This document shows positions 19,906 through 40,128 of a stretch of 64,000 nt of DNA, piece by piece. A program made the translations under genes and the position numbers. Origin of the DNA: Flavobacteriales bacterium (GTDB taxonomy: Bacteria; Bacteroidota; Bacteroidia; Flavobacteriales; JASBRU01). The notes beneath the pieces are model-generated. The model saw only the letters and a list, made by a program, of their open reading frames with translations. It had not been told where the DNA came from and made no database searches. Every line of letters begins with the position of its first letter. Position 1 is the first letter of the stretch. The stretch lies in assembly GCA_030149285.1 (NCBI GenBank), contig JASBRU010000006.1:64170-128169 (forward strand), given 5' to 3'.

Positions 19906-20072
19906 AATTTAGGCTTTGGGTCTTTCACAAACAATAAGGTAAATGCCATACCTAAAAATGCACTCACTTCTGTAAGCGTAGCCTTACCAAAATATACAAG
20001 GGTAAAGCAGATTATTAAAATAAATATACCTGTGAGTGATGTTTTTAGGTTTTTAAAAATTCTATCAATCAT
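19902..20072 (-). CDS. Holin-like small membrane protein (56 aa, below the ORF-track cutoff)
   Basis: Own translation: MIDRIFKNLKTSLTGIFILIICFTLVYFGKATLTEVSAFLGMAFTLLFVKDPKPKL. It has two hydrophobic segments and a charged tail, with ATGA overlaps to both neighbours. Confidence 0.5.
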   Translation of the reverse strand: MIDRIFKNLKTSLTGIFILIICFTLVYFGKATLTEVSAFLGMAFTLLFVKDPKPKL

Positions 20073-20500
20073 TTTTTAGGTTTTAACTTTCTATACCCCA
20101 AAACTCTAGTAATAGGATATGTAGATATATTAACTTGATTATTTTGATTACCCCCAAGCACATAAAGCTCATTACCAACTTGGTTTATAAATATACCCAC
20201 GTGTCCTTTCCAACTTCTTGGGCTTGAACGCCAAAAGACCACTATATCTCCTATTTCAGGACTATCAACTTCCTGACCAACGTTAAGCCATGAACGTGCA
20301 TTTAACTTTGCGGAATATTCTAATTCGGCTTGCTTGGCACACCAGTTTAAAAAAGCACTACACCAGGCCATTTCATCATCTTTTACCCACTCATGACCTA
20401 TTTCTTGAAAATATTTTAACACTTGAGGGTTGTGATTTTCACCACTTATTTCTTTTACACCGTATTGTGTAAATGCCATTTTTAGTAAATCTAAACTCAT
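20069..20500 (-). CDS. Phage endolysin-type cell-wall hydrolase (TIGR02594 / CHAP-NlpC/P60-like)
   Basis: EISGENHNPQVLKYFQ...WCSAFLNWC...GDIVVFWR...GHVGIF...GGNQNNQV is the characteristic layout of the TIGR02594 family, with catalytic Cys and His. Confidence 0.75.
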   Translation of the reverse strand: MSLDLLKMAFTQYGVKEISGENHNPQVLKYFQEIGHEWVKDDEMAWCSAFLNWCAKQAELEYSAKLNARSWLNVGQEVDSPEIGDIVVFWRSSPRSWKGHVGIFINQVGNELYVLGGNQNNQVNISTYPITRVLGYRKLKPKK

Positions 20501-21757: not shown

Positions 21758-22237
21758 TTAGTATAAATAAATACCTTGATAATCTGAATCTGATGATAGG
21801 TTGTATGAAGAAAAGTCTGAAGCATTATCACAGATAAACTTTAATGCTTCTGCAGCATAAAACCGTGCATTATTGAGTTGCTCATCTCTTAAGTACTTAA
21901 ACTCTATAAAGTCCGAACCCTCACTAAACTCACTTTTACCAATCATGATTCCCTTATTCACAATTTTTTGCCTAATGAGTGGTAAAGCTTCATACAAAGT
22001 ATAATGAGCCAAAGCAGGTTTCAGGTAGTCAGTTAATAAAGATTCATTACTGCCGGTATAAGTTTCTGCAACTGTTTCATTTTGGAGAGTTTCATACAAG
22101 TCCTCTCCTACTAGCGGCTTTATGTGCTTCAGTTGTGATTTAGAGATATGTTTCTCTAATAATGTGATGTCTATTTGGCTACCAACAGCTGTAATATCTA
22201 TTACTTCTGTTGCTGTGATTAATGCTGTTTCTGCCAT
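21758..22237 (-). CDS. Hypothetical phage protein (possible head-tail adaptor)
   Basis: 159 aa, helical, start/stop-coupled to the portal gene at 22237. The function is a guess from position only. Confidence 0.4.
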   Translation of the reverse strand: MAETALITATEVIDITAVGSQIDITLLEKHISKSQLKHIKPLVGEDLYETLQNETVAETYTGSNESLLTDYLKPALAHYTLYEALPLIRQKIVNKGIMIGKSEFSEGSDFIEFKYLRDEQLNNARFYAAEALKFICDNASDFSSYNLSSDSDYQGIYLY

Positions 22238-23484
22238 TATTTGAGTAGGTTTATAAGTGCTGTATCATATTGCTCTTGGCTGATGGCTTTTTCATCTAAA
22301 AGAGTTTTAAACCCCGAAATTTCTGCGGCAATACCCCTTGGAATAAAGGATACAGGTAAAGAAGTTTGTATTGATAAACTCTCTGGATTAACAGCTTTTT
22401 CATTTACTAAAACGGTTTCTAACCTTTTAAGAATAGTTCGCTGTACTTCACCAATGGTGTTTTTCATAGCTAACTCAAACTCCGTACGAATTTGCTGATT
22501 ACTACCTAACTTTCCTTCGGTTTGAATACCTGCAAGAGATGCGTAATACTGATGTGCCGTGATGATATTTTCTCTGGCCAATTTTTGTAGTTCTGTAAAA
22601 GAGCCTTCTGCCAAATCATTCAATAAAGTAATTCTGGTAGACTCATCTATAGAGTCTAATACCTGCACAATTACTTTTGCATTATTATCCTCACCTGTAA
22701 AGTTTTTGATTAAGTCTGAAGCCAGTCTCTCCTTATCTTCATCCGAAGTACCCGGTGCAACTAAATCTACTAAAGCACTTGGGCGAAAATCATTCTGAAA
22801 ACGAGAGTAGTTATATTTTCCTGTTAGGTAATCAATATCTAACCAACCACTTGTATAAGCTCCAACCCATTCTGGCACTCCATAGTCCTCAAAGCCGATT
22901 TCATAATCTTTAATATGAAGTATTGAGCGCTGCACCCCTTTTTCAGGCTTAGAAAACTCCGGATACAAAGGGATTTTTACAGCTTCTTTTGGCAAACTAT
23001 TTTGCCTTTTACGCTCTATTTCTCCCCAGTTTGGGTATAAAACAGCTACTTGTTTTTCGCCTTGCTTTGGATTGGATAAGCGAACTTTTGTAGGGTCTTT
23101 ATGATACAAGAACACATCGTTCCCGGATTTTACAATTTCTACCCAAACGTTAGCGCCTACCCAAAAATCAGCATAAAGCTTCTTTAATACCTCATTTAAA
23201 CTTTCACCATTTGTATTGATACGTTCAGATTTGGATTTTGCCTTGTTGTTTGCAGCCATTATACCATCGCCCAAACATAGCTTGGTTTTAGAGGTAATGC
23301 ATGCTCTGTGTGTAGAGGATGTTCTATACTTTAATGCATAAATGTCCATTGCCTCAAACGGAATGTACTCTGATCGCAACTTTCGTTTATCTGAAACCGG
23401 AACTACATTTTTAGTTAGCTCAGCAACTTTGGCTACAATACGCTTGGTAATAGGTTGCTTAGTTTTCTTCTGCTGTTGCATCAA
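22237..23484 (-). CDS. Phage portal protein
   Basis: 415 aa. The central block YGVPEWVGAYTSGWLDIDYL...FRPSALVDLV...AKVIVQV has the layout of PBSX/P2-type portal families. Confidence 0.6.
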   Translation of the reverse strand: MMQQQKKTKQPITKRIVAKVAELTKNVVPVSDKRKLRSEYIPFEAMDIYALKYRTSSTHRACITSKTKLCLGDGIMAANNKAKSKSERINTNGESLNEVLKKLYADFWVGANVWVEIVKSGNDVFLYHKDPTKVRLSNPKQGEKQVAVLYPNWGEIERKRQNSLPKEAVKIPLYPEFSKPEKGVQRSILHIKDYEIGFEDYGVPEWVGAYTSGWLDIDYLTGKYNYSRFQNDFRPSALVDLVAPGTSDEDKERLASDLIKNFTGEDNNAKVIVQVLDSIDESTRITLLNDLAEGSFTELQKLARENIITAHQYYASLAGIQTEGKLGSNQQIRTEFELAMKNTIGEVQRTILKRLETVLVNEKAVNPESLSIQTSLPVSFIPRGIAAEISGFKTLLDEKAISQEQYDTALINLLK

Positions 23485-24239: not shown

Positions 24240-25235
24240 TTAGTCTGCAAGTGCAGTTACTGTTAATTCATCATTTAAATACTGTACACCAACCACATAC
24301 TTCACGCGCATACGGTTTTCTTCTTCATCTTGGTTGTACCATTCTTCGGCTTCGCCTTCGTTGTAATCTGTACCAATTACAATGTTGTTTTTCACGGTAA
24401 AAATGGCTCTGTGTGGGTCTGTTGCTAAAGAATCGATAGCAATATGCGTATCCCATTCTCTACGCTCTATTACCGGAATACCATTCCAGGTAAGTGTAGG
24501 CACACCATTAATTAAGGCAGTGTTTGCAGTTTCTGTACCCCAACCAATATTTTGTAAGCTCTCACGGTAGTTTTGAGCCATAGAACGAGACACCATAATT
24601 ACAGCATCCTCTTCTAACTCCAATAATTCCGGTGGAGCGGCATCGTACATTGCTTCAAAAGTGCTTAAAGCTGCATCTATACCCAATGCACCAGCATCAA
24701 TGGTTAGTTTTTGACCAGAAGGAAGCCCTTCTAACACTTTAAAAATACCATCATATAAACGGTAGTTTTCTGCTAAAGCCTGAGCTGTTGCATCGCCACC
24801 CGGATCACCTAGGGTAACATCGCCAAAAAATAACTGACGGTTTAAATCTCGGATTACAGCACTACGGAATGTATCTGCTACAATCTCTTTTAACACAGTT
24901 CCGTCAATATCATCTTTTTGGTAGCCTCTACGTAAAGCCTCACCTTTTACGGAGCTCCAAAATGCATTACCACCTTGTGATGCTTCTGCTTTTGCACGAA
25001 CTACCGTTAAGGTTTTTTGGTCATAAACACTTCCGCCATCGCCCGAAAAGCCTTTGGAATATGCTTTTGTAATTTTCTCTAGTTTAGAGAACTTGTCTAG
25101 TTTAATTGACCCTTTTACATCTTGTATTACATGAAAGATGTCGGTTACAGGGTTTCCCACAAACATTGGTTGCAAGAAGTAGCGTTGTGCATCTTCGCCA
25201 ATGTAACTAAGGGAATGTGTGAACATTTCTGCCAT
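24240..25235 (-). CDS. Major capsid protein (HK97-fold type inferred)
   Basis: 331 aa, directly downstream of the protease/scaffold gene. Size and position are typical. No motif-level proof. Confidence 0.55.
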   Translation of the reverse strand: MAEMFTHSLSYIGEDAQRYFLQPMFVGNPVTDIFHVIQDVKGSIKLDKFSKLEKITKAYSKGFSGDGGSVYDQKTLTVVRAKAEASQGGNAFWSSVKGEALRRGYQKDDIDGTVLKEIVADTFRSAVIRDLNRQLFFGDVTLGDPGGDATAQALAENYRLYDGIFKVLEGLPSGQKLTIDAGALGIDAALSTFEAMYDAAPPELLELEEDAVIMVSRSMAQNYRESLQNIGWGTETANTALINGVPTLTWNGIPVIERREWDTHIAIDSLATDPHRAIFTVKNNIVIGTDYNEGEAEEWYNQDEEENRMRVKYVVGVQYLNDELTVTALAD

Positions 25236-25267: not shown

Positions 25268-26143
25268 TTATTTAGGAAGGGAATTTGCCAACTGATCTGC
25301 GGCTAAATCGAAAGGTGTTTTCTTAGGTATGCCGTCAACCTCTGGGTCTCCGGAGCCTGCAACAACAGTTTCTACTGCTCTTGCTTCGGCCAACTGAGCT
25401 TCTAGCTCTGTTACTTTTTCTTCTAAGTTTTTAATGTGGTTTTGAGCTGTATTTGCTTGGGTACCTGCCTCAAGCAAATTATCTTCCAACTCTTTTATTT
25501 TGTTTTGAGCAGCTTTGTCTTGCTTATCAAAAAATGCAGATAGCTTATTGAAAAAGCCTTTATCTTCTGCCAGGTTTTCTTCGGGTTTCATATAGTTTAT
25601 AGAATTGCGTTTGCTAAATCTGGTGGCATCTATCATGGCTGCCATTTTTGGGGCTTCGGCTTTAGAGTCGCAAAAACCCATATCTACTGCTTCGTCATCA
25701 GTAAACCAAGTTTCGGCAGTCATTAAGTCTCTTACTTGTTGCTCATCTAGTCCTGTTTTATTTACATAAACCGTAACCAGTTTATCATCTATTTGCTCTA
25801 GTAATTGGGTTTCTTTTTTTAGTTGTTCTGCATTGCCTACTCCCCAACTCCACGCATTGTGTATCATAAAACTGGCTCCTTCGCCAATAGATACTGTATC
25901 TGCCGCTAAGGCTATAATGGTAGCTATAGAAGCCGCTACACCATCAATCATTACGGATACTTTGTTACCGGCATTGCGGTGCTGAATAAGCGCATTGTAT
26001 ATTGCCCAACCTTCGTGTACCAATCCGCCGTAGGAGTTGATGTGAATTTCTAGGTCTTCATTGCCGGTTTCGGCTAAGGTTTCTCGGATTCCTTTGGCGG
26101 TAACATCCCAGCCAATATCTCCGTAAATAAGAATTTGTGCCAT
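25268..26143 (-). CDS. ClpP-like head-maturation protease fused to a coiled-coil scaffold-like C-terminus
   Basis: IHINSYGGLVHEGWAIYNAL...IDGVAASIATIIALAADTV...FMIHNAW is a ClpP/S14 layout (Ser in AAS, His in IHN). The C-terminal part, NKIKELEDNLLEAGTQANTAQNHIKNLEEKVTELEAQLAEA, is a coiled coil. Confidence 0.75.
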   Translation of the reverse strand: MAQILIYGDIGWDVTAKGIRETLAETGNEDLEIHINSYGGLVHEGWAIYNALIQHRNAGNKVSVMIDGVAASIATIIALAADTVSIGEGASFMIHNAWSWGVGNAEQLKKETQLLEQIDDKLVTVYVNKTGLDEQQVRDLMTAETWFTDDEAVDMGFCDSKAEAPKMAAMIDATRFSKRNSINYMKPEENLAEDKGFFNKLSAFFDKQDKAAQNKIKELEDNLLEAGTQANTAQNHIKNLEEKVTELEAQLAEARAVETVVAGSGDPEVDGIPKKTPFDLAADQLANSLPK

Positions 26144-26213: not shown

Positions 26214-26486
26214 TTAATGTGTGTTGATGTAGCTGTAGAACTTGCGCTTAATAGTAGTTTCGGAAGTTTCGTAGATTACAGAAAGGTCTCTGAAGGTATT
26301 GGTTACATGGCCCTCGTTTTCTTTAAGGAGCTCGTAAAAATCATGAATGATTAGGTAGTCTCTGCTGTCTTTTTCTCGGATGAGTTTTTCATCGAATAAG
26401 AAGTTAACGATGCTCTCAATATCATTCTGATTGTGTTTTTCTGCAACTACAGCGGATAGATGTTCTTTTAGTTCAGAACGTGTCAT
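26214..26486 (-). CDS. Small protein with C-terminal helix-turn-helix-like segment
   Basis: 90 aa. TNTFRDLSVIYETSETTIKRKFY resembles an HTH. It lies between the nuclease-like gene and the protease gene. Confidence 0.45.
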   Translation of the reverse strand: MTRSELKEHLSAVVAEKHNQNDIESIVNFLFDEKLIREKDSRDYLIIHDFYELLKENEGHVTNTFRDLSVIYETSETTIKRKFYSYINTH

Positions 26487-26544
26487 AGGCTGTTAAGGTT
26501 TTGATACTCCAAAGTAGAATAATTCACTACAGAGTGTCAAAAAA

Positions 26545-27702
26545 TTATAACTTAATTTTCTCCGCTTCTTCTCTAATTTGTATGACTATACCGTCTGAAA
26601 AATATAAATACCTTTCATTACTAGGAGGGTAATCTATATTTAAATCATAGGAACCATAAACTAAATTACTAACCACTTTTTTATCTATACCTATCTTAAA
26701 ATCTATTTTCTCTGATGGCTTAAAATTTATTCCGAAATAATATGAATCAAGTCTTATTTCATAAAAGAGAGGCTTTTCTACCCAATAAATTACATTATTT
26801 TTATCATCCTCACCTTCTTGGTAAGAAATAGAGTCATTACTATTTTGGTTATCGAAACTATCAATAGCTTGATTATCTAATAGCTTACTAGCTCTGTTAA
26901 AGTCACCAACTAAATAAAACCATGAAGCATAATGCTGCCTAAACAACTCTTTCTTATCAAAAGAATTACTATTTCCTATTTTTTTAAAATGATAATTTAT
27001 ACTTGAGTCATATTTACTATTTTCATTACCAAACTGAGTACAAACAGGTATTAATTGACTTGTTTTGGGCTTTAAAATGATTTCTAATTGCTCTTCTAGG
27101 GCTTTTTTAAGTAAACTTTTTATATTAGTATTACCTTGTGAAATGCCCTTCGACTCATAAAGTCCAATATTTTGTAAATCAGAGTTTAAAATCACAAAAT
27201 CTGGAGACTTTGATCTTTTATTGCTAATAAGTTTTTCCGACTTACACTTATATTTTTCACAGTATAAATGAAAATCTATTATGTATGGAAAGCCAAGTCG
27301 TTCTTGAATAAACAAGTAACTTACAGCCTGTGCCAATTCGCCAATCCTTGATGTCCTTGAAAAATCTCTTAACCTATTTAATCTTGACTGTTTTAATTGT
27401 AAATAATCTCCATTATAATTAAATAAGTTCATTATACTAAAGAATGAAGACATAATATCAAAGTATAATTCTTTGTAATTTAGATGGTGACTACATAGTG
27501 TTCGGGCTATTGCATAGGCTATTTTAAATTGGCTTGCTTGAAAATCACCTTCGGCTACGGGTACACTTTTATCATAAGCCTTAAGTGTTTTATAGTTTAA
27601 CACTTTAAACTTTTTCTGTTTAAGGCCCACATTAAATTCATATCTATGATAGTGTAAAATATACATCAATTTAAAAATATTAGTCTTTTTATAAAGAAAC
27701 AC
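26545..27702 (-). CDS. PD-(D/E)xK nuclease-like protein of unknown function (candidate phage-borne defence/exclusion gene)
   Basis: Central motif series RIGELAQAVSYLF ... KSPDFVILNSD ... IGLYESKG matches E / PD / ExK of restriction-endonuclease-like folds. The gene is visibly more AT-rich than the flanking structural genes. Confidence 0.5.
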   Translation of the reverse strand: MFLYKKTNIFKLMYILHYHRYEFNVGLKQKKFKVLNYKTLKAYDKSVPVAEGDFQASQFKIAYAIARTLCSHHLNYKELYFDIMSSFFSIMNLFNYNGDYLQLKQSRLNRLRDFSRTSRIGELAQAVSYLFIQERLGFPYIIDFHLYCEKYKCKSEKLISNKRSKSPDFVILNSDLQNIGLYESKGISQGNTNIKSLLKKALEEQLEIILKPKTSQLIPVCTQFGNENSKYDSSINYHFKKIGNSNSFDKKELFRQHYASWFYLVGDFNRASKLLDNQAIDSFDNQNSNDSISYQEGEDDKNNVIYWVEKPLFYEIRLDSYYFGINFKPSEKIDFKIGIDKKVVSNLVYGSYDLNIDYPPSNERYLYFSDGIVIQIREEAEKIKL

Positions 27703-27744
27703 TTCTAAACTAAACCAGTCAACCCGCTAAAAGACCTGTTTTTA

Positions 27745-30147
27745 CTAAAAACTATTCTCAGATTCTTGTAAGCGTACTGTAGTACTTACCGAGTGCAAAT
27801 GCTCTACCGGTAATACCACCTCACGGGAGTTTATTTTATTGGCTAAGCTACTGGTAAACGATTCTACATCTATACCTGCATTACTTTGGTTATTTCTAAA
27901 GGGTTGAGGAATTAAAGCTTGCGGTGGCAACAAACCGCCCAAGGCAAACTTGCTACCTATTGCGCCTGGTATGGGCACACCGCCTGCGGCTACATTCAGC
28001 TCGCTGGCTCTGGCTCGTAAAAACGGATTTTGGGCTACACCTTTGGTGAGTAGTATTTCACCTCCTTCGGCTTCAAAGCCTCCCCTACCATCAATATTAA
28101 AGGGGATACCGCCCGCCTCATGTGAAGGACCTTGTAACAAACCACCCCTTTTAAACTTAGGGATTGGCTTTGCGGCTACCAATGCGGCTTGTAATGCGCC
28201 TTGAGCCCCAACAATTGCTGCCAATATAAAATTAGGTAAGGCAGCAGCTACCGCCTTCGCAGTACTTAATGCAATCTCAAAAAGTGTTTTCTGCTTATCT
28301 GTTTTGGCTTGCTCAGTTTTTATCCTTTTTTCTTCAGCTGCAAACTTTTTATTAATCCGCTCTTTGGCTTTGGCATTATCACCGGCTAAGGCCAACTCTG
28401 CTTGTTTTTGCCTATCTAAATCTAATAGTTCTTTCTCTCTATTAATTCTGCCAAACTCAAAAATGGCCTCGTAGGTTTGTATTGCCAAGTCTTTTGCCGC
28501 CTGCCTATTTGCTGCATCTCTTTCTGCTTTTGCTAAAGCAGTTTTTTTCTCATCATCATCTATTTTTTGTAAAGCCAGTTTATGTTGCTCAATTTCCTCT
28601 TCATGCTTTTTTACCAAAAACTGCTGAAAGTCTGTAAAACTACTCTCATAAAACTCATTTACTATATCTTGTTTTTCCTGCTCGGTTTTAATTGCATAAT
28701 CGGCATTAATTTTTCTTAGTGCCTCTGCTTTCTCTTGCTCCTTTTGTTTTTGCTTTCCTAGGTTTTGGGCATCAAACTGATGCTCTTCTCTTTCTTTTGC
28801 AAAAACATCATCAATTAACAATAATTCAGCATTTTTCTTTTCTTCTAATGCTTTTACATCTATGCTGTGTTGTTTACCTAAATCTATTAGTTTTTTATAC
28901 TGAGCATTTATTCTGGCTATTTCATCTGTTTTGGCTTTCTCACTCAGGTCGCCAAAATTAAACTCCTCTTTGGCAGCAATAGCTTCATCAATTAGAGCTT
29001 GGGCTTCTTGCTTTGCAGCTTCACGTTTTTGCTTTTCTGCTTCAGCTTTTTCTCTATTTTTTTGGTTTTGATTTTTAATTGCATCTGTTTGCTGCTGCTT
29101 AATATCAGCAACTAAATCACTATAACTGGCAGCTATACTAGCTTGCTCTCTTTCTAGTTCAAATACTCTTATTTGCCCTTCATGAATTTCGTCAGCTAAA
29201 GCTTCTTTTTCTTCATCACTTACAGTACCCAACAAGCCTTCTTGATTATTTACCCTTTCTTGTGCAATCCTCAGTTCTTCTGCATTTAGCTTTTTACGCA
29301 ATTCATTTTGTTGCTCTGCTGCCTCAAGTCTTTCTTTATAGCTTTTCTTTTCATCATCTATAATGCGCTGTAGTCTATCATCATCTATCCCCCTTTCTGC
29401 TCTTTGTTTTTCTAGCTCTTTTTCATCTGTAACTAGTTTATTTAAGTTATCTCTAAGCGTATTTATATTTTTTGCTGCATCAAGCGCATCTTTCCCCAGA
29501 TTTTTTAATCTTTTTGCACTATCAGTAACATTTTCAGCAAAATCTTGCACAGCACCTTTGGCATCGTTTAGTGCTCCTTTAAAATCTCCTTTAAAAACTT
29601 TACCAATAGCTCCGGCTATGGTTCTAAGGGTTTGAAAATACTTAATTACATAGTTTTTAATGATATCAACTAATCCACTAAAAACATTGCTCAAAAAGTT
29701 GGTTGCAGTTCTAAGAACCTTTGCACCCTTTTCTGTCTTAAAGAACATTTGCCCCAGCTTTACCAGTAGCCCCACCACAAAACCAATTGGATTTGATTTT
29801 AATGCTGCATTAAAAAGCTTGGTTGCCTTTTGCGCAAAGCTCATAGAACCTGCGCTAGACTTAAACTCCTTAGAAAGCTTTGAAATACCCGATTTTGCCT
29901 GTTTATATGCGTTTACTCCATCGCCAATGGTTGAACCCAACACTTCTGTCTTCTTTATCATATCTATGATAGAGGTAGAAGACTTATCAAACTCGTCTTT
30001 ATTCTTTTTTAAGGTTATATTGAGGTTATTAACCTGGCTATTTACTTTGGTTACGTTTTGGGTAACACTTGTAATTTGGGTATTGAAGTTTTGTACTTGC
30101 TGGGTATTATTGACCTGTAGGTCGATAATAATTTTATTGTCTTCCAT
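27745..30147 (-). CDS. Tail tape-measure-like protein with Gly-rich C-terminal domain
   Basis: 800 aa. It has hydrophobic segments near residues 110-135, a very long Lys/Glu/Ala/Gln coiled coil, a second hydrophobic block (AALPNFILAAIVGAQGALQAALVAA), then GGLLQGPSHEAGGIPFNIDGRGGFEAEGGEILL. Confidence 0.65.
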   Translation of the reverse strand: MEDNKIIIDLQVNNTQQVQNFNTQITSVTQNVTKVNSQVNNLNITLKKNKDEFDKSSTSIIDMIKKTEVLGSTIGDGVNAYKQAKSGISKLSKEFKSSAGSMSFAQKATKLFNAALKSNPIGFVVGLLVKLGQMFFKTEKGAKVLRTATNFLSNVFSGLVDIIKNYVIKYFQTLRTIAGAIGKVFKGDFKGALNDAKGAVQDFAENVTDSAKRLKNLGKDALDAAKNINTLRDNLNKLVTDEKELEKQRAERGIDDDRLQRIIDDEKKSYKERLEAAEQQNELRKKLNAEELRIAQERVNNQEGLLGTVSDEEKEALADEIHEGQIRVFELEREQASIAASYSDLVADIKQQQTDAIKNQNQKNREKAEAEKQKREAAKQEAQALIDEAIAAKEEFNFGDLSEKAKTDEIARINAQYKKLIDLGKQHSIDVKALEEKKNAELLLIDDVFAKEREEHQFDAQNLGKQKQKEQEKAEALRKINADYAIKTEQEKQDIVNEFYESSFTDFQQFLVKKHEEEIEQHKLALQKIDDDEKKTALAKAERDAANRQAAKDLAIQTYEAIFEFGRINREKELLDLDRQKQAELALAGDNAKAKERINKKFAAEEKRIKTEQAKTDKQKTLFEIALSTAKAVAAALPNFILAAIVGAQGALQAALVAAKPIPKFKRGGLLQGPSHEAGGIPFNIDGRGGFEAEGGEILLTKGVAQNPFLRARASELNVAAGGVPIPGAIGSKFALGGLLPPQALIPQPFRNNQSNAGIDVESFTSSLANKINSREVVLPVEHLHSVSTTVRLQESENSF

Positions 30148-30164: not shown

Positions 30165-32219
30165 TTAGCTGGTTACAGGCACATAATTGCCCACGTACAA
30201 GAGTAATTCTACGGTTGTTGTATTAGATGCCCCTGGTGTGTAGTTGCTTATTTTATTGATGTAGTAAAAATTCTCGCCCAGCTTTATCAGTTTTCTAGGA
30301 TTTAGGTTGGCAATATCTAGCGGAGTTAGATGAAAGTTGGCTTTAAGTATTCTGCTCTCATCATAGAGTTTTTGCTGTAAACCATAGTATTTTTGGTAAA
30401 ACCCAAGTTCCCCTCCTACATCTGCAAATTGCATTGCTCCATCTGTTGTATATCCGGTAAAGGCTGCTCCATACTCTGCATTAGATGTTTCATTTCCGTC
30501 CTCATCTATTATCTTAAAACTATTGGTTCCTTCGGTACTATTTTCACCATCATAATACCACATACGGGTATTGAATTTTATATTCCTATCAGGCACATTA
30601 TCATCTTCGGGTAAATCCTTCCATAGTGTTGGTATAAGCGTATTGCCTAAACCACGTGCAGTATCTTCTCTCATTATGGTTGGTGAAACTGCTTTTACCT
30701 CTACCTTTTGCTCGCCATTGGCAAACACGTTTTTCACATCTACTTTGTGCTCACCGTATATAGCCTCTTTTTCCTTTTCATACTCTTCCAGTAGCACGTC
30801 TCCACTATCTGGTTTTTGAGTGTATATAAATGTTTTTTTGGCTACACTTATGTAACTTATTTCGGGTGGTTTGCTTACATCTAATTTATCAGACCAATCT
30901 ACAGATTCACTTATATTGCTAAAGAAGTCAGGATGTGGCTCTATGTAAATTTTCTTTTCATTTACATCGGTATAAAAGTATAAGTTGAAATGCTCTTTTA
31001 GCATCTGCACAAACTCTAATTGAGTCATATCCGGTAATTGCTTAGAGAGTTCTATTGTAGCTCCAAAAGGTATTTTGTTGGTAGGTGTTATTATAAACTC
31101 CGAGTCTGTTTCTATTCTACAAACCCCATCATCAATATTTGGGGTATCCATCGCTACCCGAACATATATCTCATCGCCATTTTCAAATGATCCCTCATAA
31201 TCTAAACCCACATAATGCTCATCTGCACCCGAAAGCTCTTCAATACCTTTTTTAAGAACTACTTCTGTAGATGTACCATTTAATTTTTTGATTAAGGAAT
31301 ATCTAACTCTTGGAGTATCGGCTATATCTAATAAAAACAACCTACTTGAAACCTTTAAATGAATGTCTTTTTTACAGGTATAATGCCCAGTACCCAAAGC
31401 ATAAGGTGGGTCAGTAGCTCTTTGGTCGGCCTGCTCCCATATCAAATCAGTAGACGTTGAATAACCATAACCAGCATATGGCGCGCCAAAAGACACACCA
31501 TCTGTTGAAGTTTTGTAGGCTTTTAAATATAAATCTTCGTCTGAACCATTGCTAAACTTCTCTTTGGTAAATGGAATAATAAGCTTTTTAAAAAAATTGG
31601 TATTGGTAAAACTTGATATTACCTGATAACCTGCATCATTAAAAATTTTATCGAAAACAGGTTTTACAAAAACTGCCGGATAAAAATCGTTGAGCGTAAA
31701 CTGCTTTTTTATGGCATCATTGCCAATATGTTCATATCCGTAATTGGTAAGTGGGTAGGTATATAAATCTGTATAATCATTCGTCCAACTGGCAGTAATG
31801 TTTGCTTTTGTATAAGCATGGTCTCCTTCGCTCAAGTCAACATCTATCAACTCTAGTTCATTCATGCTTTCTTTCCAGTCGCCATTACCGCCCTTTATTT
31901 CTATTTTGTATTCTGATAGTACTCCAAAAGGATCAGAAACAATACTTTTTACCTTACACAGGCCCGTCATTACTACTATGCCATTAACCTCTATACGTGC
32001 TTTAAGTAATTGGGTTTGATCTTTTGCTGAAAGCGAATTTATATCCGTTGCAAAACCAAATACTTGCTGATTAGTACTAGTTGCAGGTACTGTAATAGTT
32101 CTAGAAAAATCTGTGCTTCTAGACTGTATTTTGTTGATATCTGCAATAGAGTAATTAAGCGCAATAGGCTCTGAGCCAACATCTATAGATTGCTCATTAA
32201 TAAATATTTCTGTACGCAT
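30165..32219 (-). CDS. Large phage tail/baseplate-type structural protein
   Basis: 684 aa, beta-rich, adjacent to the tape measure and a fibre-like gene. Function inferred from size and position. Confidence 0.45.
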   Translation of the reverse strand: MRTEIFINEQSIDVGSEPIALNYSIADINKIQSRSTDFSRTITVPATSTNQQVFGFATDINSLSAKDQTQLLKARIEVNGIVVMTGLCKVKSIVSDPFGVLSEYKIEIKGGNGDWKESMNELELIDVDLSEGDHAYTKANITASWTNDYTDLYTYPLTNYGYEHIGNDAIKKQFTLNDFYPAVFVKPVFDKIFNDAGYQVISSFTNTNFFKKLIIPFTKEKFSNGSDEDLYLKAYKTSTDGVSFGAPYAGYGYSTSTDLIWEQADQRATDPPYALGTGHYTCKKDIHLKVSSRLFLLDIADTPRVRYSLIKKLNGTSTEVVLKKGIEELSGADEHYVGLDYEGSFENGDEIYVRVAMDTPNIDDGVCRIETDSEFIITPTNKIPFGATIELSKQLPDMTQLEFVQMLKEHFNLYFYTDVNEKKIYIEPHPDFFSNISESVDWSDKLDVSKPPEISYISVAKKTFIYTQKPDSGDVLLEEYEKEKEAIYGEHKVDVKNVFANGEQKVEVKAVSPTIMREDTARGLGNTLIPTLWKDLPEDDNVPDRNIKFNTRMWYYDGENSTEGTNSFKIIDEDGNETSNAEYGAAFTGYTTDGAMQFADVGGELGFYQKYYGLQQKLYDESRILKANFHLTPLDIANLNPRKLIKLGENFYYINKISNYTPGASNTTTVELLLYVGNYVPVTS

Positions 32220-32223: not shown

Positions 32224-33819
32224 TTATGAAGATTGTAGTATTACACTTGCATCATTGGTATTGCTTTGTGTGTTTATTGCATTTGAATACCTACAATTAA
32301 GCTTTAATTGAGTGGCTTGCTCACTTTCGTGAGTTATAACTTTACCGTCATCAATTACAATGGGTATCAACTTATCTTTTATCTCGTAACGCTTAACAGA
32401 TACATCATCCCAAAAATTTGTGCTTCCGGCAACTCCATCATTACGTAAATTTAAATACACGCTTGTAGCACTAGGGCTATATATAAAGCTTGTTGTAGCT
32501 TGCTCATCTAATGCAACCTCACTCTCTACACCCTCTAAAGAGCCTGCACTAAGTGTAAAGTTTATGCTTCTAACTGTTGATGTACCTTCTAAATGCGTTA
32601 CAGAAACCAAGTAATCTTCGCCAACTTCTAGGCCTTCTAATAACTGAGATACCCCCCCGCCACTAGATGGGGTTCCTTCATTTGTAGTAACCTCCATTAC
32701 ATCTGAGCTAGCATCTGTAGTACTATCAAAGGCTACCCAGCCATCACTATTTCCAAAATCACCATTCTGTATTACCTCAATACCCACAAATGGAGTTTCA
32801 GAATCATACAGGTATACGTCTACAGAATAGAGAAGCTCTTTTAGCCAACTCATTTTTTCTTCCGAAAGGAACTCGCTATAAATTTCAAAACTTTCATTGG
32901 CTTCAATACCAGTAATTATTTCTCCTCGGTTACTCAATTCAAAATCATTACCTAAGGGTCTTGTAAAAGTTTGTGTTTTTGTGGATAAGCTATTTTTTCT
33001 TTTCCCTTTAAATGTAAATTGGTCATACCCACCTAATGAATTTCTAAAAAAGAGGGTTGAATGCTGTTTGTTAACCGTACGGTCTACATATACTGTTTTT
33101 GTATATAAGTACAGTTCACTATCAGGGGCAGAACCTACAGCTATTTTTATATATGCGCAATTAGAGGCCAAGTCTTCCATTTTTTGCTGAAAAACTCGCC
33201 TTGTTGCAGAGTTATTTAATAAATAATAATCTTTTTGAATACTGCTATTACTACTAGTAAACTGCTCTACAGTAATAGTAATACTTGTAATAGAAGGGTT
33301 ATTTATAAATGCTATTTGCAAATAGGTGTCAGCAGGTACAAACTGTTTATTGGGCATATTCGTTAAAAAATCTCTCTGTTCATCTCCATCTATGGTGTAA
33401 CCCAATAAGTTTTGATTTTCTAAGTGCTGACGGGTAGCATTTAATACCCCAAAAGTAGAGGAAGTAGCAGTTAAGCCTTCTTGTAGCAAACCATTAGAAT
33501 CTTCATAAAGCTCTGTAAAAACACAGTAAAAAGTTCTTGAAGATTCATTTGAAGAAGCAAATTGTCCCGTTCCTTTTTTAAAATCCTCGGGCTTACCTGT
33601 AAGTACACTTTTTAAGTGTTCTGAAACATCAAAAGTATATACCAATGGTGAAGTATCACTATACCTATATGTTGAGCTAATTTTGATGTCATTTACATAT
33701 ATATCTGCTCTAACCCTAGGGTTACTACCTTGTGGTGCAGTGTTTAATACTTTAAATATTATTGGGCGATATGCCGCAGAGTAGTACTCTGTCGGGTAAT
33801 GGGTAATGCTAAATGCCAT
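32224..33819 (-). CDS. Phage tail fibre/receptor-binding-like protein with CBM-like jelly-roll C-terminal domain
   Basis: The C-terminal segment IQNGDFGNSDGWVAFD...YLVSVTHLEG...FWDDVSVKR has the layout of CBM4_9/galactose-binding-like domains. Confidence 0.45.
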   Translation of the reverse strand: MAFSITHYPTEYYSAAYRPIIFKVLNTAPQGSNPRVRADIYVNDIKISSTYRYSDTSPLVYTFDVSEHLKSVLTGKPEDFKKGTGQFASSNESSRTFYCVFTELYEDSNGLLQEGLTATSSTFGVLNATRQHLENQNLLGYTIDGDEQRDFLTNMPNKQFVPADTYLQIAFINNPSITSITITVEQFTSSNSSIQKDYYLLNNSATRRVFQQKMEDLASNCAYIKIAVGSAPDSELYLYTKTVYVDRTVNKQHSTLFFRNSLGGYDQFTFKGKRKNSLSTKTQTFTRPLGNDFELSNRGEIITGIEANESFEIYSEFLSEEKMSWLKELLYSVDVYLYDSETPFVGIEVIQNGDFGNSDGWVAFDSTTDASSDVMEVTTNEGTPSSGGGVSQLLEGLEVGEDYLVSVTHLEGTSTVRSINFTLSAGSLEGVESEVALDEQATTSFIYSPSATSVYLNLRNDGVAGSTNFWDDVSVKRYEIKDKLIPIVIDDGKVITHESEQATQLKLNCRYSNAINTQSNTNDASVILQSS

Positions 33820-33824: not shown

Positions 33825-34133
33825 TTAGGTTTTTAAGGGCTTTAAACTATTTTTTAATTGGCTTATAAAAGACTGTGTTAGTAAACTTTTTATCTCTGCT
33901 TTTTTATTTTGATAGATGATAGCTGCCGGGCTTTTTGAAGTATTACTTTCAAATACATTTTTATATGCATCAAAGCTTTTTCTGTTTGGGAGAAAGTATT
34001 TTACACTTATCAATTCTTTTACCATATTTACCTCCACTCCGTTTTCATCTAATCCTTGCTCTATTAGTAGCTTTACTGACTCATCTTGCAGTAAATCAGC
34101 AACTTTTGCTAATGCATTATCAAAATCCATCAA
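33825..34133 (-). CDS. Hypothetical phage protein
   Basis: 102-aa ORF, 5 nt upstream of the next gene. Confidence 0.45.
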   Translation of the reverse strand: MMDFDNALAKVADLLQDESVKLLIEQGLDENGVEVNMVKELISVKYFLPNRKSFDAYKNVFESNTSKSPAAIIYQNKKAEIKSLLTQSFISQLKNSLKPLKT

Positions 34134-34168
34134 TTGGTTTTTTAGTTTTTTTTATTACTTTTAGAGCT

Positions 34169-34687
34169 ATGAAAGCTGTGAGTAGCATTTTTATTGTAGT
34201 CCTTTCCCTCATCATGATTACTTCTTGTGAAGATGCTACTATTGGTGATGGTGGAGCCGACACCTTACCAGCTGTTACTAGTAACGGGGCAAACACACTA
34301 GGTTTTAAGCTCAATGATAAAGTATGGGTACCTAAGTCTGAAGGTCTTATATCACCCCTACAAGTTGAGTTCAATAACAATAGTTTATTTATTAAAGGTA
34401 CCAGAGGTCTTACCGAAACTTTTATCATTAACTATAAAAATGACATCACTAAAGAAGGTACTTACCCAATGGTTTTTGCCAATATTGCCACCGATGGCAC
34501 AGGTTATTACAAAGATGTAAATGGCGAAGAGTATTACTGCGACAACAGATTTGGTCAGCTAATAATTGATAAACTTGATAAAAAAGAGCGCATCATTTCA
34601 GGCACATTTAATTTCAATGTTATTATACCCGGTCAGCCTACCTCTAAGCTTTCTATAACTGAGGGTAGATTTGATCTTGCTTATTAA
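34169..34687 (+). CDS. Lipoprotein encoded on the opposite strand inside the phage cluster (moron)
   Basis: MKAVSSIFIVVLSLIMITSC lipobox. Start set at ATG 34169 (the longer ORF-track N-terminus overlaps the minus-strand gene). Confidence 0.6.
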   Translation: MKAVSSIFIVVLSLIMITSCEDATIGDGGADTLPAVTSNGANTLGFKLNDKVWVPKSEGLISPLQVEFNNNSLFIKGTRGLTETFIINYKNDITKEGTYPMVFANIATDGTGYYKDVNGEEYYCDNRFGQLIIDKLDKKERIISGTFNFNVIIPGQPTSKLSITEGRFDLAY

Positions 34688-35225: not shown

Positions 35226-35807
35226 ATGAAAAAAATTATTTTTATCGCTTTAATTTCAAGCGCACTATTTAGTTGTAGTAATGATACAAAGCAAGATAAT
35301 GCCGAATACAATGCGCCAACAATAGTATATACTGGCACTGCAGACTCTATTAGTACAGTTGCAGCAGCAAACAAACTTCATTCGTTTTTACATGATTATA
35401 AAAGCAACTACGCAGAAATAAATAACATTAAATTTATTGTTGAAGGAGATGATGAAGCCAATAAAGTAGATTTTGAAAAACTAGTTGCTTATCAAGAAGA
35501 CCTTAAAAAGAGTGGCTATTTTACTGACCAATATTTTGAGGAAAAACTTATCTATTACACCGAGATGGACTCTAGGTTAGCTACAGGAACCACCTACTCC
35601 AATGATGAAATAAAGCAAGATCCTATATTATTTGTAACAGACCCAAAAAGAATTTTAAATAACATTAATAATATTACCTACACAGCAAAAAGAGCTGGTA
35701 ATGGGGTTATTATTAATGGTAATTATAATGATATAGTAGTAACTGCCGAGTTATTTTTTAATAATGACAATTGGACTATTAATAATATCTATTGCTACTA
35801 TAAATAA
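35226..35807 (+). CDS. Second opposite-strand lipoprotein inside the phage cluster (moron)
   Basis: MKKIIFIALISSALFSC lipobox; 193 aa. Confidence 0.6.
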   Translation: MKKIIFIALISSALFSCSNDTKQDNAEYNAPTIVYTGTADSISTVAAANKLHSFLHDYKSNYAEINNIKFIVEGDDEANKVDFEKLVAYQEDLKKSGYFTDQYFEEKLIYYTEMDSRLATGTTYSNDEIKQDPILFVTDPKRILNNINNITYTAKRAGNGVIINGNYNDIVVTAELFFNNDNWTINNIYCYYK

Positions 35808-36918: not shown

Positions 36919-36974
36919 ATAGATTATTTAAAGTTTAAAAATTTGATTAGCTTCGTATGAGCTACGATTTTATC

Positions 36975-37547: not shown

Positions 37548-37584
37548 AAAAATTTAGTTTCGCAAAAAATTATCCTATAAATCA

Positions 37585-38139: not shown

Positions 38140-38145
38140 TCATCA

Positions 38146-38718: not shown

Positions 38719-40128
38719 TTATTTCATAATTACCCTCCTTCCTTTAGGGGCTTTTTGCAAAGCCATTACTAAGCAATCTACTCTATCATCGTGCTTGGCA
38801 TTAGGAAAATGACATACTTCTTTCAAAAAATCATCATTCCAAGTGCCTTGTAAAAGCTCTACTCTACCGGCTTCTACTATAGCAGATATGTTTTGTACTC
38901 TAGCCACTTTATCGGTTACAGGGCTTTTATCTTCCAGTACATTCAGAGTGGTTTCTCTTTTAAGTGCTTGCACCAAACTTTTACCACTTGCTTTGGGCTC
39001 TATGTATATTCTAGATGAAGATGAATAGCCATTCTTTTTGCAAAAAGTAACTATGTATTTCAGCAACTCCGGAAACTCCATACGTACTGCCTCTACTTCA
39101 CGTATTACCCATTGGTTATTTTGCACAGAGTAAGCCAATAATGCTGTAGCATCGTTATAGTCTGATGCTGTATAAGCAGGGTCAATACAAAAGTTCCAAG
39201 TAACATTATCGGGTACTGTATTGGTTAGTTTAAACCAGTTTTTCTTTAATAAGCCTCCTTCTTCTGGTGCAGGGCTCTGCTCAAACTGACCTGCATATCC
39301 GTAGCTACCTAAATCTACTTTGGCTTCTTGTAACACACTTCTGTTTAAACGTTCTTTATCCAACAATCCTTGCTTGTACTTTAGGCGCAATGAGTGTGGT
39401 TTTACCAAGCTACTCAACTCGGCAGGCAAGCATATATGTTTCAGCTTTTGCTTTTGTTTGGCAAGCCAGTGCCCCGTACAATCATCTTCGTGCAGGCGCT
39501 GCATTATCAATATGGTGGGTGTTATGGCTTTATCTACCTTACGGGTACTAAGGGTTTTATCTAGCCAATCATTAGCCGTTTTTCGTTCGGTTTCAGATGC
39601 CGCCATTTTAGGGTTTAAGGGGTCATCTACTATAATTATATGGGCGTGCTTACCCGTAACCGTACCCCCTACCGAGGTTGCCATACGGCTACCGCCCATC
39701 GTATTCTCATAATAAGTTTTACTGTTCTGATCGGTTTTTAGTTCTATTTCGGGGAATAGTTTTTTATATAAATCAGAGCGCAGTACATCTCTGGTTTTTA
39801 CCGAGTGCTCGGTTGCCAGCTCTCCACTATAACTACCGGTAATAATACGGAGGGTAGGGTCGAGCGTCCAGCACCACGCTGGGAACAGGAGGGTACACAA
39901 AGTAGATTTTGTAGTTCCCGGAGGAATATTGATGATAATGTCGTGGTGCTTAGATAAACGCTCGGAGGCTTGTTCTGCAAGAGTTTGCAGCTCGGCACAT
40001 AAATAAGGTATGTGCCAGTTATATATAGGTTTTTCGGGTATAATGATGGGCCAGAACAGTCTTACAAATTCGTAAAAATGTCTGCGGCAAAGCTCCGCTT
40101 GGGCTTTAAGACTGCTGGCTCGCATCAA
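38719..40128 (-). CDS. Terminase large subunit
   Basis: Walker A-like IINIPPGTTKST and Walker B HIIIVDDP. The C-terminal RNaseH-like nuclease has CIDPA...IEPKASG...HDDRVDCL (the TIGR01630-type C-terminal domain). Confidence 0.85.
   Translation of the reverse strand: MMRASSLKAQAELCRRHFYEFVRLFWPIIIPEKPIYNWHIPYLCAELQTLAEQASERLSKHHDIIINIPPGTTKSTLCTLLFPAWCWTLDPTLRIITGSYSGELATEHSVKTRDVLRSDLYKKLFPEIELKTDQNSKTYYENTMGGSRMATSVGGTVTGKHAHIIIVDDPLNPKMAASETERKTANDWLDKTLSTRKVDKAITPTILIMQRLHEDDCTGHWLAKQKQKLKHICLPAELSSLVKPHSLRLKYKQGLLDKERLNRSVLQEAKVDLGSYGYAGQFEQSPAPEEGGLLKKNWFKLTNTVPDNVTWNFCIDPAYTASDYNDATALLAYSVQNNQWVIREVEAVRMEFPELLKYIVTFCKKNGYSSSSRIYIEPKASGKSLVQALKRETTLNVLEDKSPVTDKVARVQNISAIVEAGRVELLQGTWNDDFLKEVCHFPNAKHDDRVDCLVMALQKAPKGRRVIMK

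What the first reader, a model, noticed from the sequence alone, without database searches (positions are those of the whole stretch)
26214..27702. AT-rich PD-(D/E)xK nuclease-like gene (plus small HTH-like ORF) wedged inside the virion-structural operon: candidate undescribed phage-borne defence/exclusion module
- **Position:** the 385-aa ORF 26545..27702 lies between the tape-measure stop (27745) and the protease/capsid genes, where no nuclease is expected.
- **Motif:** its centre carries, in the right order and spacing, the signature of restriction-endonuclease-like folds: a helix with Glu (RIGELAQAVSYLF), a strand with PD (KSPDFVILNSD) and a strand with E-x-K (IGLYESKG).
- **Unassigned regions:** I cannot assign the ~120-aa N-terminal region or the ~190-aa Asn/Asp/Ser/Tyr-rich C-terminal region to any family.
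- **Composition:** spot counts of single 60-nt lines give about 28% G+C inside the gene (26581..26640) versus about 47% in the adjacent tape-measure gene (28021..28080). This suggests a later insertion.
- **Partner:** a 90-aa ORF with an HTH-like C-terminus follows on the same strand.
- **Interpretation:** nuclease cargo inserted into late operons of prophages is a recurrent location for anti-phage systems. I do not recognise this one as a named system (Shedu-like single-gene nucleases are the nearest concept).
Basis: partly seen in the sequence, partly recalled or inferred. Interest (0 to 1): 0.7.

Follow-up and report, generated by a model that had tools for sequence, protein, structure and literature searches.

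The report
Unnamed restriction-linked nuclease gene in prophage
An AT-rich gene sitting between the tail and head genes of a prophage-like element encodes a predicted DNA-cutting enzyme of an unnamed family that elsewhere lives almost only inside bacterial type I restriction-modification operons, so it is most likely an anti-phage defence gene picked up by the phage.

Summary
ORF 26545..27702 (-) is real; its likely start is ATG 27666, giving 373 aa. It lies between a tape-measure-like gene and the prohead protease, and it has 28.2% G+C against 36% for the rest of the phage-like region.

An AlphaFold model (pLDDT 86, pTM 0.89) has the alpha-beta-beta-beta-alpha-beta nuclease core. Fold matches are individually weak but are mostly PD-(D/E)xK nucleases.

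The main new result is context. In 19 of 29 informative loci, spanning Bacteroidota and Proteobacteria, homologues sit inside type I R-M operons, usually directly after hsdS. They sit beside TgvAB-like GmrSD pairs and other defence cargo. No homologue was found in 50,697 phage genomes or in IMG/VR.

The 90-aa "HTH partner" is an ORFan with different composition and no support as a partner.

Verdict: a new PD-(D/E)xK family and a probable defence or exclusion nuclease, here as a single-gene prophage moron. Function is untested, and a PrrC-like coupling to type I R-M is not excluded.

The parts
26545..27666 (-). Gene X: a 373-aa protein of an unnamed PD-(D/E)xK nuclease-like family. The maximal ORF extends to GTG 27702 (385 aa).
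   Evidence: ORF list. The identical 373-aa protein is in the database and has 86 homologues. The profile search finds 356 clusters at 50% identity. AF2 model: pLDDT 86, pTM 0.89. No Pfam, PHROG, PADLOC or NCBIfam hit.
27088..27369 (-). Predicted catalytic core, in 373-aa numbering: R100-D101-F102-S103; helix alpha1 with G109-E110 and Q113; D131; P155-D156 at the start of a strand; E171-S-K173-G174 in the next strand; Q193 in helix alpha2.
   Evidence: These are invariant columns in the 53-sequence alignment A1. D101, D156, K173 and Q193 stay invariant in the 81-sequence divergent alignment A2, and the others stay at 90% or more. DSSP of the model gives H101-123, E128-131, E157-160, E167-176, H182-194, E204-214, which is the alpha-beta-beta-beta-alpha-beta core.
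26545..26857 (-). C-terminal beta-rich domain (about residues 270-373) of unknown function, ending in the conserved F-x-D358-G-T motif.
   Evidence: Model strands 282-364 with mostly high pLDDT. D358/G359 are conserved at 90% or more. No fold or family match.
27370..27666 (-). N-terminal region (residues 1-99): a beta-hairpin plus helices, family-specific and unassigned.
   Evidence: Model elements E17-24, E37-45, H46-60, H65-81. Conserved ARTLCS-like helix in A1. No family match.
27667..27744 (-). 78-nt spacer between the stop of the tape-measure-like gene and the ATG of X.
   Evidence: Sequence. No Bacteroidota -7 motif TAnnTTTG on this strand between 24576 and 28952. No promoter or terminator signal above shuffled expectation, and no flanking repeats.
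26214..26486 (-). Adjacent 90-aa ORFan. It is listed because the finding included it, but it is not shown to belong to the X unit.
   Evidence: It matches only itself among 5.8 billion proteins. G+C is 37.4% and GC3 0.43, against 28.2% and 0.22 for X. No homologue sits next to X in any of 46 loci. No HTH by Pfam; the model is weak and all-helical with no fold match.

Best explanation
Gene X (26545..27666, minus strand) encodes a stand-alone, metal-dependent PD-(D/E)xK-type endonuclease of a previously unnamed family. The family's normal home is the cargo slot of type I restriction-modification operons (hsdM-hsdS-X-...-hsdR).

In this window a solitary copy has been acquired as a single-gene, AT-rich moron. 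It sits at the junction between the tail module and the head module of a prophage-like element in a Bacteroidota chromosome.

The most likely role is nucleic-acid-level defence or superinfection exclusion: cleavage of incoming foreign, probably phage, DNA. Catalysis would use the E110 / D156 / E171-x-K173 site. The family-specific N- and C-terminal domains would supply target recognition or regulation. Because the copy has no cognate methyltransferase, self-protection probably comes from target specificity (modified or structured DNA) or from regulated activation, not from host methylation.

Shown: family membership, conservation of the motif, the predicted fold, and the genomic contexts. Inferred: nuclease activity, DNA as the substrate, the defence role, and benefit to the lysogen.
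For: - Catalytic-type residues are the invariant columns of the family. The window copy keeps all of them and aligns end to end with the family profile (400 bits).
- The AF2 model is confident (pLDDT 86, pTM 0.89) and has the canonical alpha-beta-beta-beta-alpha-beta order, with D156 at the start of a strand and ExK in the next strand.
- In the Foldseek BFVD search, 12 of the top 20 hits are PD-(D/E)XK, Cas4, YqaJ, DUF2800, exonuclease or cap-snatching proteins. The PDB list includes cap-snatching endonuclease, RecE, HindIII, HincII, YaeQ, lambda exonuclease and MutH.
- In 19 of 29 informative distinct loci X lies on the same strand between hsdS and hsdR. In 13 of those it is directly after hsdS, often with a 4-8 nt overlap.
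- This holds across at least 4-5 HsdM lineages in two phyla. X and HsdM divergences co-vary (rho 0.73).
- Co-embedded genes are typical defence cargo: TgvAB-like GmrSD pairs, SACS/HATPase, NOV_C, REase-ARP, PLD/NgoFVII, DUF4917 and RelA_SpoT. For TgvAB see PMC11411939.
- Non-R-M contexts also look like defence islands or mobile elements: SMC-like ATPase + GmrSD_N + NACHT, Fic, and PLD nuclease + serine recombinase.
- Embedding in a defence operon is a validated predictor of defence function (Payne et al., bioRxiv 10.1101/2024.01.29.577857).
- Composition marks X alone as foreign within the structural cluster.
Against: - No experiment bears on this.
- No fold match is individually significant: best E is 0.03 in BFVD and 0.38 in PDB.
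- Profile searches against PDB sequences, and hhalign against three PD-(D/E)xK families, are not significant.
- No close relative of the prophage exists to show an empty site, so 'insertion' rests on composition alone.
- No own promoter motif was found upstream. X may therefore be transcribed with the late structural genes rather than in the lysogen.
- The phage-like region lacks detectable integrase, repressor and replication genes and may be defective.
- The family is absent from all other phage collections searched, so phage carriage is a one-off.
Confidence: 0.55

Rival explanations
1. X is a PrrC-like guard of type I restriction. It would be a latent nuclease held in check by, or physically bound to, the HsdM/HsdS(/HsdR) complex. 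It would be unleashed when a phage anti-restriction protein disables the R-M enzyme, giving an abortive-infection backup. The prophage copy would then act with a host type I system in trans, or be a repurposed orphan.
For: - In L016, L031, L033 and L034 the operon is hsdM-hsdS-X-hsdR with translationally coupled overlaps. This is the hsdS-hsdR slot that the PrrC literature describes for prrC (PMC1484252 abstract).
- About two thirds of loci are embedded. Payne et al. note that such near-exclusive embedding is unusual and typical of PrrC.
- X is the first cargo gene after hsdS in most multi-cargo loci.
- X co-diverges with HsdM.
- HsdR in these operons keeps its own nuclease domain (HSDR_N), so X is not a substitute for it.
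Against: - Ten loci, including the window, carry X with no adjacent hsd genes. No HsdM or HsdS similarity exists anywhere in the 64-kb window.
- X has no NTPase or sensor domain comparable to the ABC-type domain of PrrC, and no similarity to PrrC models in PADLOC.
- Positional conservation may simply reflect that the hsdS-hsdR gap is the general cargo slot.
Confidence: 0.2
2. X serves the phage during lytic growth rather than the lysogen. It would be a nuclease expressed with the late genes to degrade host or competitor DNA, or to process phage DNA.
For: X has the same strand and tight spacing as the flanking late structural genes. No promoter-like motif lies upstream and no terminator separates X from the tape-measure gene.
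Against: - No phage in INPHARED or IMG/VR carries a homologue, whereas phage-beneficial nucleases are usually conserved among related phages.
- Homologues are cellular and sit in defence loci.
- Its foreign composition argues that it is not part of the phage core.
Confidence: 0.12
3. X is a selfish free-standing homing endonuclease gene that invaded the gap between two phage genes.
For: It is an AT-rich single-gene insertion between conserved phage genes, and PD-(D/E)xK homing endonucleases are known (background knowledge). Composition.
Against: - The family is not found in any other phage.
- Homologues keep a stable, co-diverging position inside type I R-M operons in two phyla. That is not the sporadic distribution of homing genes.
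- There are no flanking repeats or split target genes.
Confidence: 0.04
4. X is inert baggage: an intact-looking but unexpressed or non-functional relic in a decaying prophage remnant.
For: The phage-like region has only structural and lysis genes, an unusual module order, and no integrase or regulatory genes. X has no recognisable promoter.
Against: The ORF is full length, keeps all 17 invariant residues of the family, and scores 400 bits end to end against the family profile. All neighbouring phage ORFs are also intact.
Confidence: 0.1

Closest known systems
PD-(D/E)xK (restriction-endonuclease-like) nuclease superfamily, e.g. Cas4/RecB-like, lambda exonuclease/YqaJ, HindIII/HincII, bunyaviral cap-snatching endonuclease
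   Same: The motif order is the same: E in helix alpha1, then (P)D at the start of a strand, then ExK in the next strand, then a conserved Q in helix alpha2. The predicted alpha-beta-beta-beta-alpha-beta core is the same. These proteins dominate the otherwise weak Foldseek hit lists.
   Different: No sequence-profile link to any Pfam or PDB member. X has family-specific N-terminal and C-terminal domains and an invariant RDFS motif before alpha1. No individual structural match reaches significance.
Genes embedded in type I R-M operons: TgvAB (GmrSD-like; PMC11411939), the PDC/HEC candidates of Payne et al. (10.1101/2024.01.29.577857), and the Campylobacter Rlo genes
   Same: Homologues of X occupy the same hsdS-hsdR cargo slot on the same strand, often next to TgvAB-like pairs. 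The inference of a defence role uses the same guilt-by-embedding logic.
   Different: X is unrelated in sequence to GmrSD and matches no PADLOC v2 model. The window copy is not embedded in an R-M operon at all; it sits in a prophage structural cluster.
PrrC anticodon nuclease (type Ic R-M-linked abortive-infection RNase)
   Same: The operon position (hsdM-hsdS-X-hsdR) is the same, and the fraction of family members embedded in type I R-M is unusually high.
   Different: The fold and chemistry differ. PrrC is an ABC-ATPase plus a ribonuclease domain, while X is a PD-(D/E)xK protein without an NTPase domain. There is no sequence similarity. A third of X loci lack hsd genes.
   Same: It is a single-gene defence built on a PD-(D/E)xK nuclease with a variable N-terminal region.
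   Different: None of 53 family members hits DUF4263 in Pfam or the Shedu models in PADLOC. The genomic association differs: X is type I R-M-embedded.
Mrr-type type IV restriction enzymes
   Same: It is a solitary PD-(D/E)xK nuclease without a partner methyltransferase, encoded beside type I R-M and other type IV genes.
   Different: There is no Mrr_cat or winged-helix match. Modification dependence is untested.

Membership tests
PD-(D/E)xK nuclease superfamily | Conserved catalytic signature: an acidic residue in helix alpha1, D at the start of strand beta2, and (D/E)xK in strand beta3 | tested here: met
   E110, P155-D156 and E171-x-K173 are invariant in 53 sequences. In 81 divergent sequences D156 and K173 stay invariant, and E110 and E171 stay at 90% or more.
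PD-(D/E)xK nuclease superfamily | alpha-beta-beta-beta-alpha-beta core fold carrying those residues | tested here: met
   Predicted only. AF2 (pLDDT 86, pTM 0.89) gives H101-123, E128-131, E157-160, E167-176, H182-194 and E204-214, with the motif residues at the expected positions.
PD-(D/E)xK nuclease superfamily | Statistically significant structural or profile similarity to an established member | tested here: inconclusive
   Foldseek best E is 0.03 (BFVD) and 0.38 (PDB), yet the lists are dominated by PD-(D/E)xK proteins. Pfam, PDB-profile and hhalign searches are not significant, although hhalign places PD..ExK in register with the HsdR-N, REase-ARP and NOV_C motifs.
PD-(D/E)xK nuclease superfamily | Metal-dependent phosphodiesterase activity | not testable with these tools
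   Needs purified protein and active-site mutants.
Shedu (SduA) | C-terminal DUF4263/SduA nuclease domain | tested here: not met
   No Pfam hit at E<=5 and no PADLOC hit at E<=1 for any of 53 members, nor for the window protein.
Type I R-M-embedded defence candidates (guilt-by-embedding, Payne et al.) | Gene lies between hsd genes of one operon, on the same strand | tested here: met
   Met for the family: 19 of 29 informative loci. Not met for the window copy itself: there is no hsd similarity in the window.
Type I R-M-embedded defence candidates (guilt-by-embedding, Payne et al.) | Matches an existing HEC/PDC or other PADLOC model | tested here: not met
   PADLOC-DB v2.0.0 has no consistent hit for any of 53 members.
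PrrC-type R-M-linked abortive-infection nucleases | N-terminal ABC-type NTPase plus C-terminal anticodon nuclease domain | tested here: not met
   No Pfam or PADLOC match. The model shows a PD-(D/E)xK core and no P-loop domain.
PrrC-type R-M-linked abortive-infection nucleases | Silencing by the type I R-M complex and activation by a phage anti-restriction factor | not testable with these tools
   Only the operon position is shared. Needs co-purification and Ocr/Stp challenge.
Mrr-like type IV restriction enzymes | Mrr_cat catalytic domain with an N-terminal winged-helix, and dependence on modified DNA | tested here: not met
   No Mrr_cat or wHTH hit. Modification dependence is not testable here.
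Free-standing homing endonuclease genes of phages | Sporadic presence or absence among related phage genomes at a conserved site | tested here: not met
   No homologue in INPHARED or IMG/VR. Cellular homologues are stably syntenic with hsd genes.
   The 90-aa ORF is an ORFan, is absent next to all homologues, has different composition, and shows no HTH by Pfam or fold search.

The most novel reading that the evidence does not exclude
The X family is a functional accessory of type I restriction-modification systems: a PD-(D/E)xK counterpart of PrrC. It would be translationally coupled to hsdS, kept latent by the HsdMS(R) complex, and fired when phage anti-restriction proteins disable the enzyme. 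The prophage would have captured an orphan copy, either to plug into the host's type I system in trans or to use as an unregulated exclusion nuclease. That would define a second, DNA-level 'retaliation' arm of type I R-M, conserved from Flavobacteriia to Proteobacteria.
Probability: 0.2. Interest if true: 0.75.

Novelty: new variant of a known kind. Interest (0 to 1): 0.5.

Why it matters
If X is an active defence nuclease, three things follow.
- It adds a compact single-gene system (about 370 aa) to the defence repertoire. No current annotation resource recognises it (Pfam, PHROGs, NCBIfam and PADLOC v2 are all negative).
- It explains a recurrent unannotated gene in type I R-M operons of marine and freshwater Flavobacteriia and of some Proteobacteria.
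- It gives a concrete example of gene flow from a chromosomal R-M cargo slot into a phage structural operon.

Its unusually strict linkage to hsdS also makes a PrrC-style coupling between type I restriction and a second nuclease directly testable. Even so, new candidate defence nucleases found by context are now common, and nothing here has been shown experimentally. The finding is useful rather than startling.

Tried and rejected
- **Family libraries.** Pfam, PHROGs, NCBIfam and PADLOC were run on the window protein, and Pfam and PADLOC also on all 53 aligned members. Nothing was found. Pfam on ten long or remote family members also found nothing.
- **PDB by sequence.** Single-sequence and two profile searches gave no relative.
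- **hhalign.** The family profile was compared with the HsdR N-terminal nuclease, REase-ARP and NOV_C alignments built from neighbouring genes. Probabilities were below 2%, so this is not usable as proof, although the PD/ExK motifs were placed in register.
- **Empty-site comparison.** I looked for related prophages lacking X. blastn and tblastn against INPHARED, an IMG/VR scan with the capsid protein, and a protease homologue search found no close relative (best 40% identity), so the comparison was impossible.
- **Other phage-borne X copies.** None in INPHARED or IMG/VR.
- **Insertion scars, promoter and terminator around X.** Nothing above background, and no Bacteroidota -7 motif upstream.
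- **The 90-aa ORF as partner.** A database search found only itself. The single-sequence model is of low confidence and its fold search is meaningless. Rejected as a demonstrable partner.
- **X as a replacement for a missing HsdR nuclease domain.** Rejected, because HsdR in these operons keeps HSDR_N.
- **Two look-ups failed.** P0008 and P0009 were not on record.
Full report
**1. What is in the window**

All genes from about 19.4 to 41.7 kb that matter here lie on the minus strand. In the direction of transcription the order is:
- a large terminase (38719..40128; Terminase_6C);
- several unassigned ORFs;
- two large tail-type ORFs (32224..33819 and 30165..32219);
- an 800-aa coiled-coil ORF with weak tape-measure PHROG hits (27745..30147);
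- the 385-aa ORF of the finding (26545..27702);
- a 90-aa ORF (26214..26486);
- a ClpP-type prohead protease (25268..26143; PF00574 at 5e-25, phrog_94 at 8e-67);
- the major capsid protein (24240..25235);
- the portal (22237..23484; PF04860);
- a CHAP lysin (20069..20500).

Flanking genes are ordinary Bacteroidota chromosomal genes: a T9SS-sorted protein, DUF4842 proteins, histidine kinases, DUF2461 and an SDR. So the ORF really is wedged between the tail and head modules of a prophage-like element. I found no integrase, repressor or replication genes, and the module order is unusual. The element may therefore be defective.

**2. Check of the observation**

The coordinates, the three motif strings and the two spot G+C values are all correct.

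The likely start is ATG 27666, giving 373 aa. This is the form stored in the protein database, and homologues begin at the same place.

- X is 28.2% G+C.
- The whole tape-measure gene is 37.8%.
- The rest of the phage-like region is 36.3%.
- The gene mean is 35.6% (sd 3.4).
- X is the second most AT-rich of 65 ORFs, and only 1.3% of equal-sized windows are as AT-rich.

The dip covers X alone. The 90-aa ORF has 37.4% G+C and the highest GC3 in the region (0.43, against 0.22 for X).

**3. The protein family**

X has no hit in Pfam, PHROGs, NCBIfam or PADLOC v2 and none in PDB by sequence. It is nevertheless not an orphan:
- 86 homologues were found, all annotated 'hypothetical' or left unnamed. 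The named ones come mostly from Flavobacteriia and other Bacteroidota, with a shorter 335-aa branch in Proteobacteria.
- An exhaustive profile search finds 356 clusters at 50% identity among 1.84 billion representatives, of which 112 score below 1e-30.
- None of 53 members hits any Pfam or PADLOC model consistently, and ten remote or longer members gave nothing either.

In the 53-sequence alignment the invariant columns are R100, D101, F102, S103, G109, E110, Q113, D131, P155, D156, F157, E171, K173, Q193, W249, F250 and D358. In an 81-sequence alignment reaching down to about 20% identity, D101, D156, K173 and Q193 remain invariant. E110, D131, P155, E171 and G174 remain at 90% or more. The motif is therefore a conserved signature and not a chance match.

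**4. Fold**

An AlphaFold2 model built on the alignment is confident (mean pLDDT 86.3, pTM 0.89). Its central part reads:
- helix 101-123, carrying E110;
- strand 128-131, carrying D131;
- strand 157-160, preceded by P155-D156;
- strand 167-176, carrying E171 and K173;
- helix 182-194, carrying Q193;
- strand 204-214.

This is the canonical alpha-beta-beta-beta-alpha-beta restriction-endonuclease-like core, with the catalytic residues where they should be. Around it lie a family-specific N-terminal hairpin-plus-helices region and a C-terminal beta-rich domain.

Foldseek gives no individually significant match. In BFVD, however, 12 of the top 20 hits are PD-(D/E)XK, Cas4, YqaJ, DUF2800, exonuclease or bunyaviral L proteins (best E 0.03). 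The PDB list contains cap-snatching endonuclease, RecE, HindIII, HincII, YaeQ, lambda exonuclease and MutH (best E 0.38).

Profile-profile comparison with three PD-(D/E)xK families taken from neighbouring genes was not significant, although it put the PD and ExK motifs in register.

I conclude that X is a very divergent PD-(D/E)xK nuclease. My confidence is about 0.8 for the fold and lower for activity.

**5. Genomic context of homologues (the main new result)**

I collected 46 loci from genomes and metagenomes. I annotated them with precomputed Pfam hits, iterative HMMs seeded from one annotated operon, and a Pfam scan.

Of 29 distinct loci with enough flanking DNA, 19 have X inside a type I R-M operon, on the same strand and downstream of hsdM-hsdS.
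- In 13 of these, X directly follows hsdS, often with a 4-8 nt overlap.
- In Proteobacteria the operon is simply hsdM-hsdS-X-hsdR (L016, L031, L033, L034).
- In Flavobacteriia X is followed by variable cargo before hsdR. The cargo includes GmrSD_N/GmrSD_C pairs of the TgvAB type (PMC11411939), a 1482-aa SACS/HATPase protein, NOV_C, REase-ARP/PDDEXK_13, PLD/NgoFVII, DUF4917 and RelA_SpoT.

The association spans at least four or five HsdM lineages that share only 27-48% identity. X and HsdM divergences co-vary (Spearman 0.73; the pairs are not independent), with X evolving faster. HsdR in these operons retains its own nuclease domain, so X is not a split-off HsdR nuclease.

The ten non-embedded loci include:
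- a defence-island-like context with an SMC-like ATPase, GmrSD_N and NACHT;
- a Fic neighbour;
- the closest homologue (47% identity), which sits next to an NgoFVII-like PLD nuclease and a serine recombinase on a 45-kb contig of mostly unknown genes;
- several uninformative contexts.

No homologue exists in 50,697 GenBank phage genomes or in IMG/VR.

**6. Interpretation**

Payne et al. showed that embedding in type I R-M, BREX, DISARM or Hma operons predicts defence function. They confirmed seven embedded systems experimentally and noted that more than half of embedded genes remain unexplained (10.1101/2024.01.29.577857). X falls in that unexplained fraction, because it matches no PADLOC v2 model.

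The best-supported reading is that X is a defence-type nuclease, and that the window holds a copy captured by a prophage-like element as a single-gene moron. It has no partner methyltransferase and also occurs without hsd genes. Self-protection must therefore come from target specificity (type IV-like, or structure-specific) or from regulated activation. The sequence does not say which.

An attractive but unproven alternative is a PrrC-like functional coupling to the type I enzyme. X shares PrrC's operon slot and its unusually high embedding rate, but it has none of PrrC's domains.

Against expression in the lysogen, I found no promoter-like motif in the 78-nt upstream spacer. In particular there is no Bacteroidota TAnnTTTG on that strand between 24576 and 28952. 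A role during lytic growth therefore cannot be excluded.

**7. The 90-aa ORF**

- It is an ORFan: it matches only itself in 5.8 billion proteins.
- Its composition is unlike that of X.
- It has no counterpart next to any X homologue.
- It has no Pfam HTH match.
- Its single-sequence model (pLDDT 65) is all-helical with no fold match.

The 'nuclease + HTH module' is not supported. The unit is the nuclease gene alone.

**8. Novelty and verdict**

The kind of thing is known: a stand-alone PD-(D/E)xK nuclease associated with restriction systems and carried as a prophage moron. The family itself is not named in any library searched here, and four literature searches found no paper that describes it.

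Membership in Shedu, Mrr, PrrC or any PADLOC candidate was tested and not met. I rate the finding a new variant of a known kind, of moderate interest (0.5).

Its interpretation is partly supported:
- Right on the nuclease-like nature, the foreign origin and the likely defence role.
- Wrong on the partner ORF.
- Unaware that the family's home is the type I R-M operon.

Everything functional remains to be tested.

Noticed in passing
window 19400-41700: The prophage-like region holds only packaging, structural and lysis genes, in an unusual order: TerL > tail > tape-measure > X > protease > capsid > portal > CHAP lysin. No integrase, repressor or replication gene was detectable, and there is no close relative in phage collections (best protease homologue 40% identity). 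It could be a defective prophage or some other phage-derived particle cluster.
   Followed up: partly
window 33935-34687 (+), 35226-35807 (+), 36957-38718 (+): Opposite-strand ORFs are inserted within the structural cluster. Two have lipoprotein-like N-termini (…LIMITSC, …SSALFSC), and three more have no family hit. They are probably additional morons, for example surface or exclusion lipoproteins.
   Followed up: no
window 26214-26486 (-): A 90-aa ORFan lies directly upstream of the prohead protease. It is unique in a database of 5.8 billion proteins and has the highest GC3 of the region (0.43). Its function is unknown, and whether it codes at all is unverified.
   Followed up: yes
window 27745-28400 (-): The 3' end of the tape-measure-like gene is a local G+C peak (0.45-0.48). 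It encodes a Gly-rich C-terminal segment (…GPSHEAGGIPF…GGFEAEGGE…) that is distinct from the coiled-coil body. The best PHROG hit for this protein is an unknown-function family (phrog_33615, 1.5e-16), not a tape-measure family (1e-5).
   Followed up: no
L001, L003, L005, L008, L009, L020, L022, L043, L045, L046 (between hsdS and hsdR): The type I R-M operons of Flavobacteriia carry a highly variable cargo slot. Besides X it holds TgvAB-like GmrSD pairs, a 1482-aa SACS/HATPase protein, a 1040-aa protein with a NOV_C end, REase-ARP, PLD/NgoFVII, DUF4917 and RelA_SpoT. It also holds large proteins with no family hit (1261 aa in L001; 467 and 400 aa in L045). This is a rich source of further defence candidates.
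   Followed up: partly
window 5159-7201 (-) and 8412-10442 (-): Two paralogous proteins of about 680 aa with DUF4114 + DUF4842 lie near a 916-aa T9SS-sorted protein (11718-14468). These are host surface proteins unrelated to the finding.
   Followed up: no
L039/L040 and L025/L026: A separate conserved island context for X homologues reads: 310-aa and 158-aa unknown ORFs, a 684-aa SMC_N/AAA_23 ATPase, X, a 572-aa GmrSD_N protein, a 277-aa ORF, then a NACHT protein. X may be part of, or adjacent to, a multi-gene ATPase-based system there.
   Followed up: no
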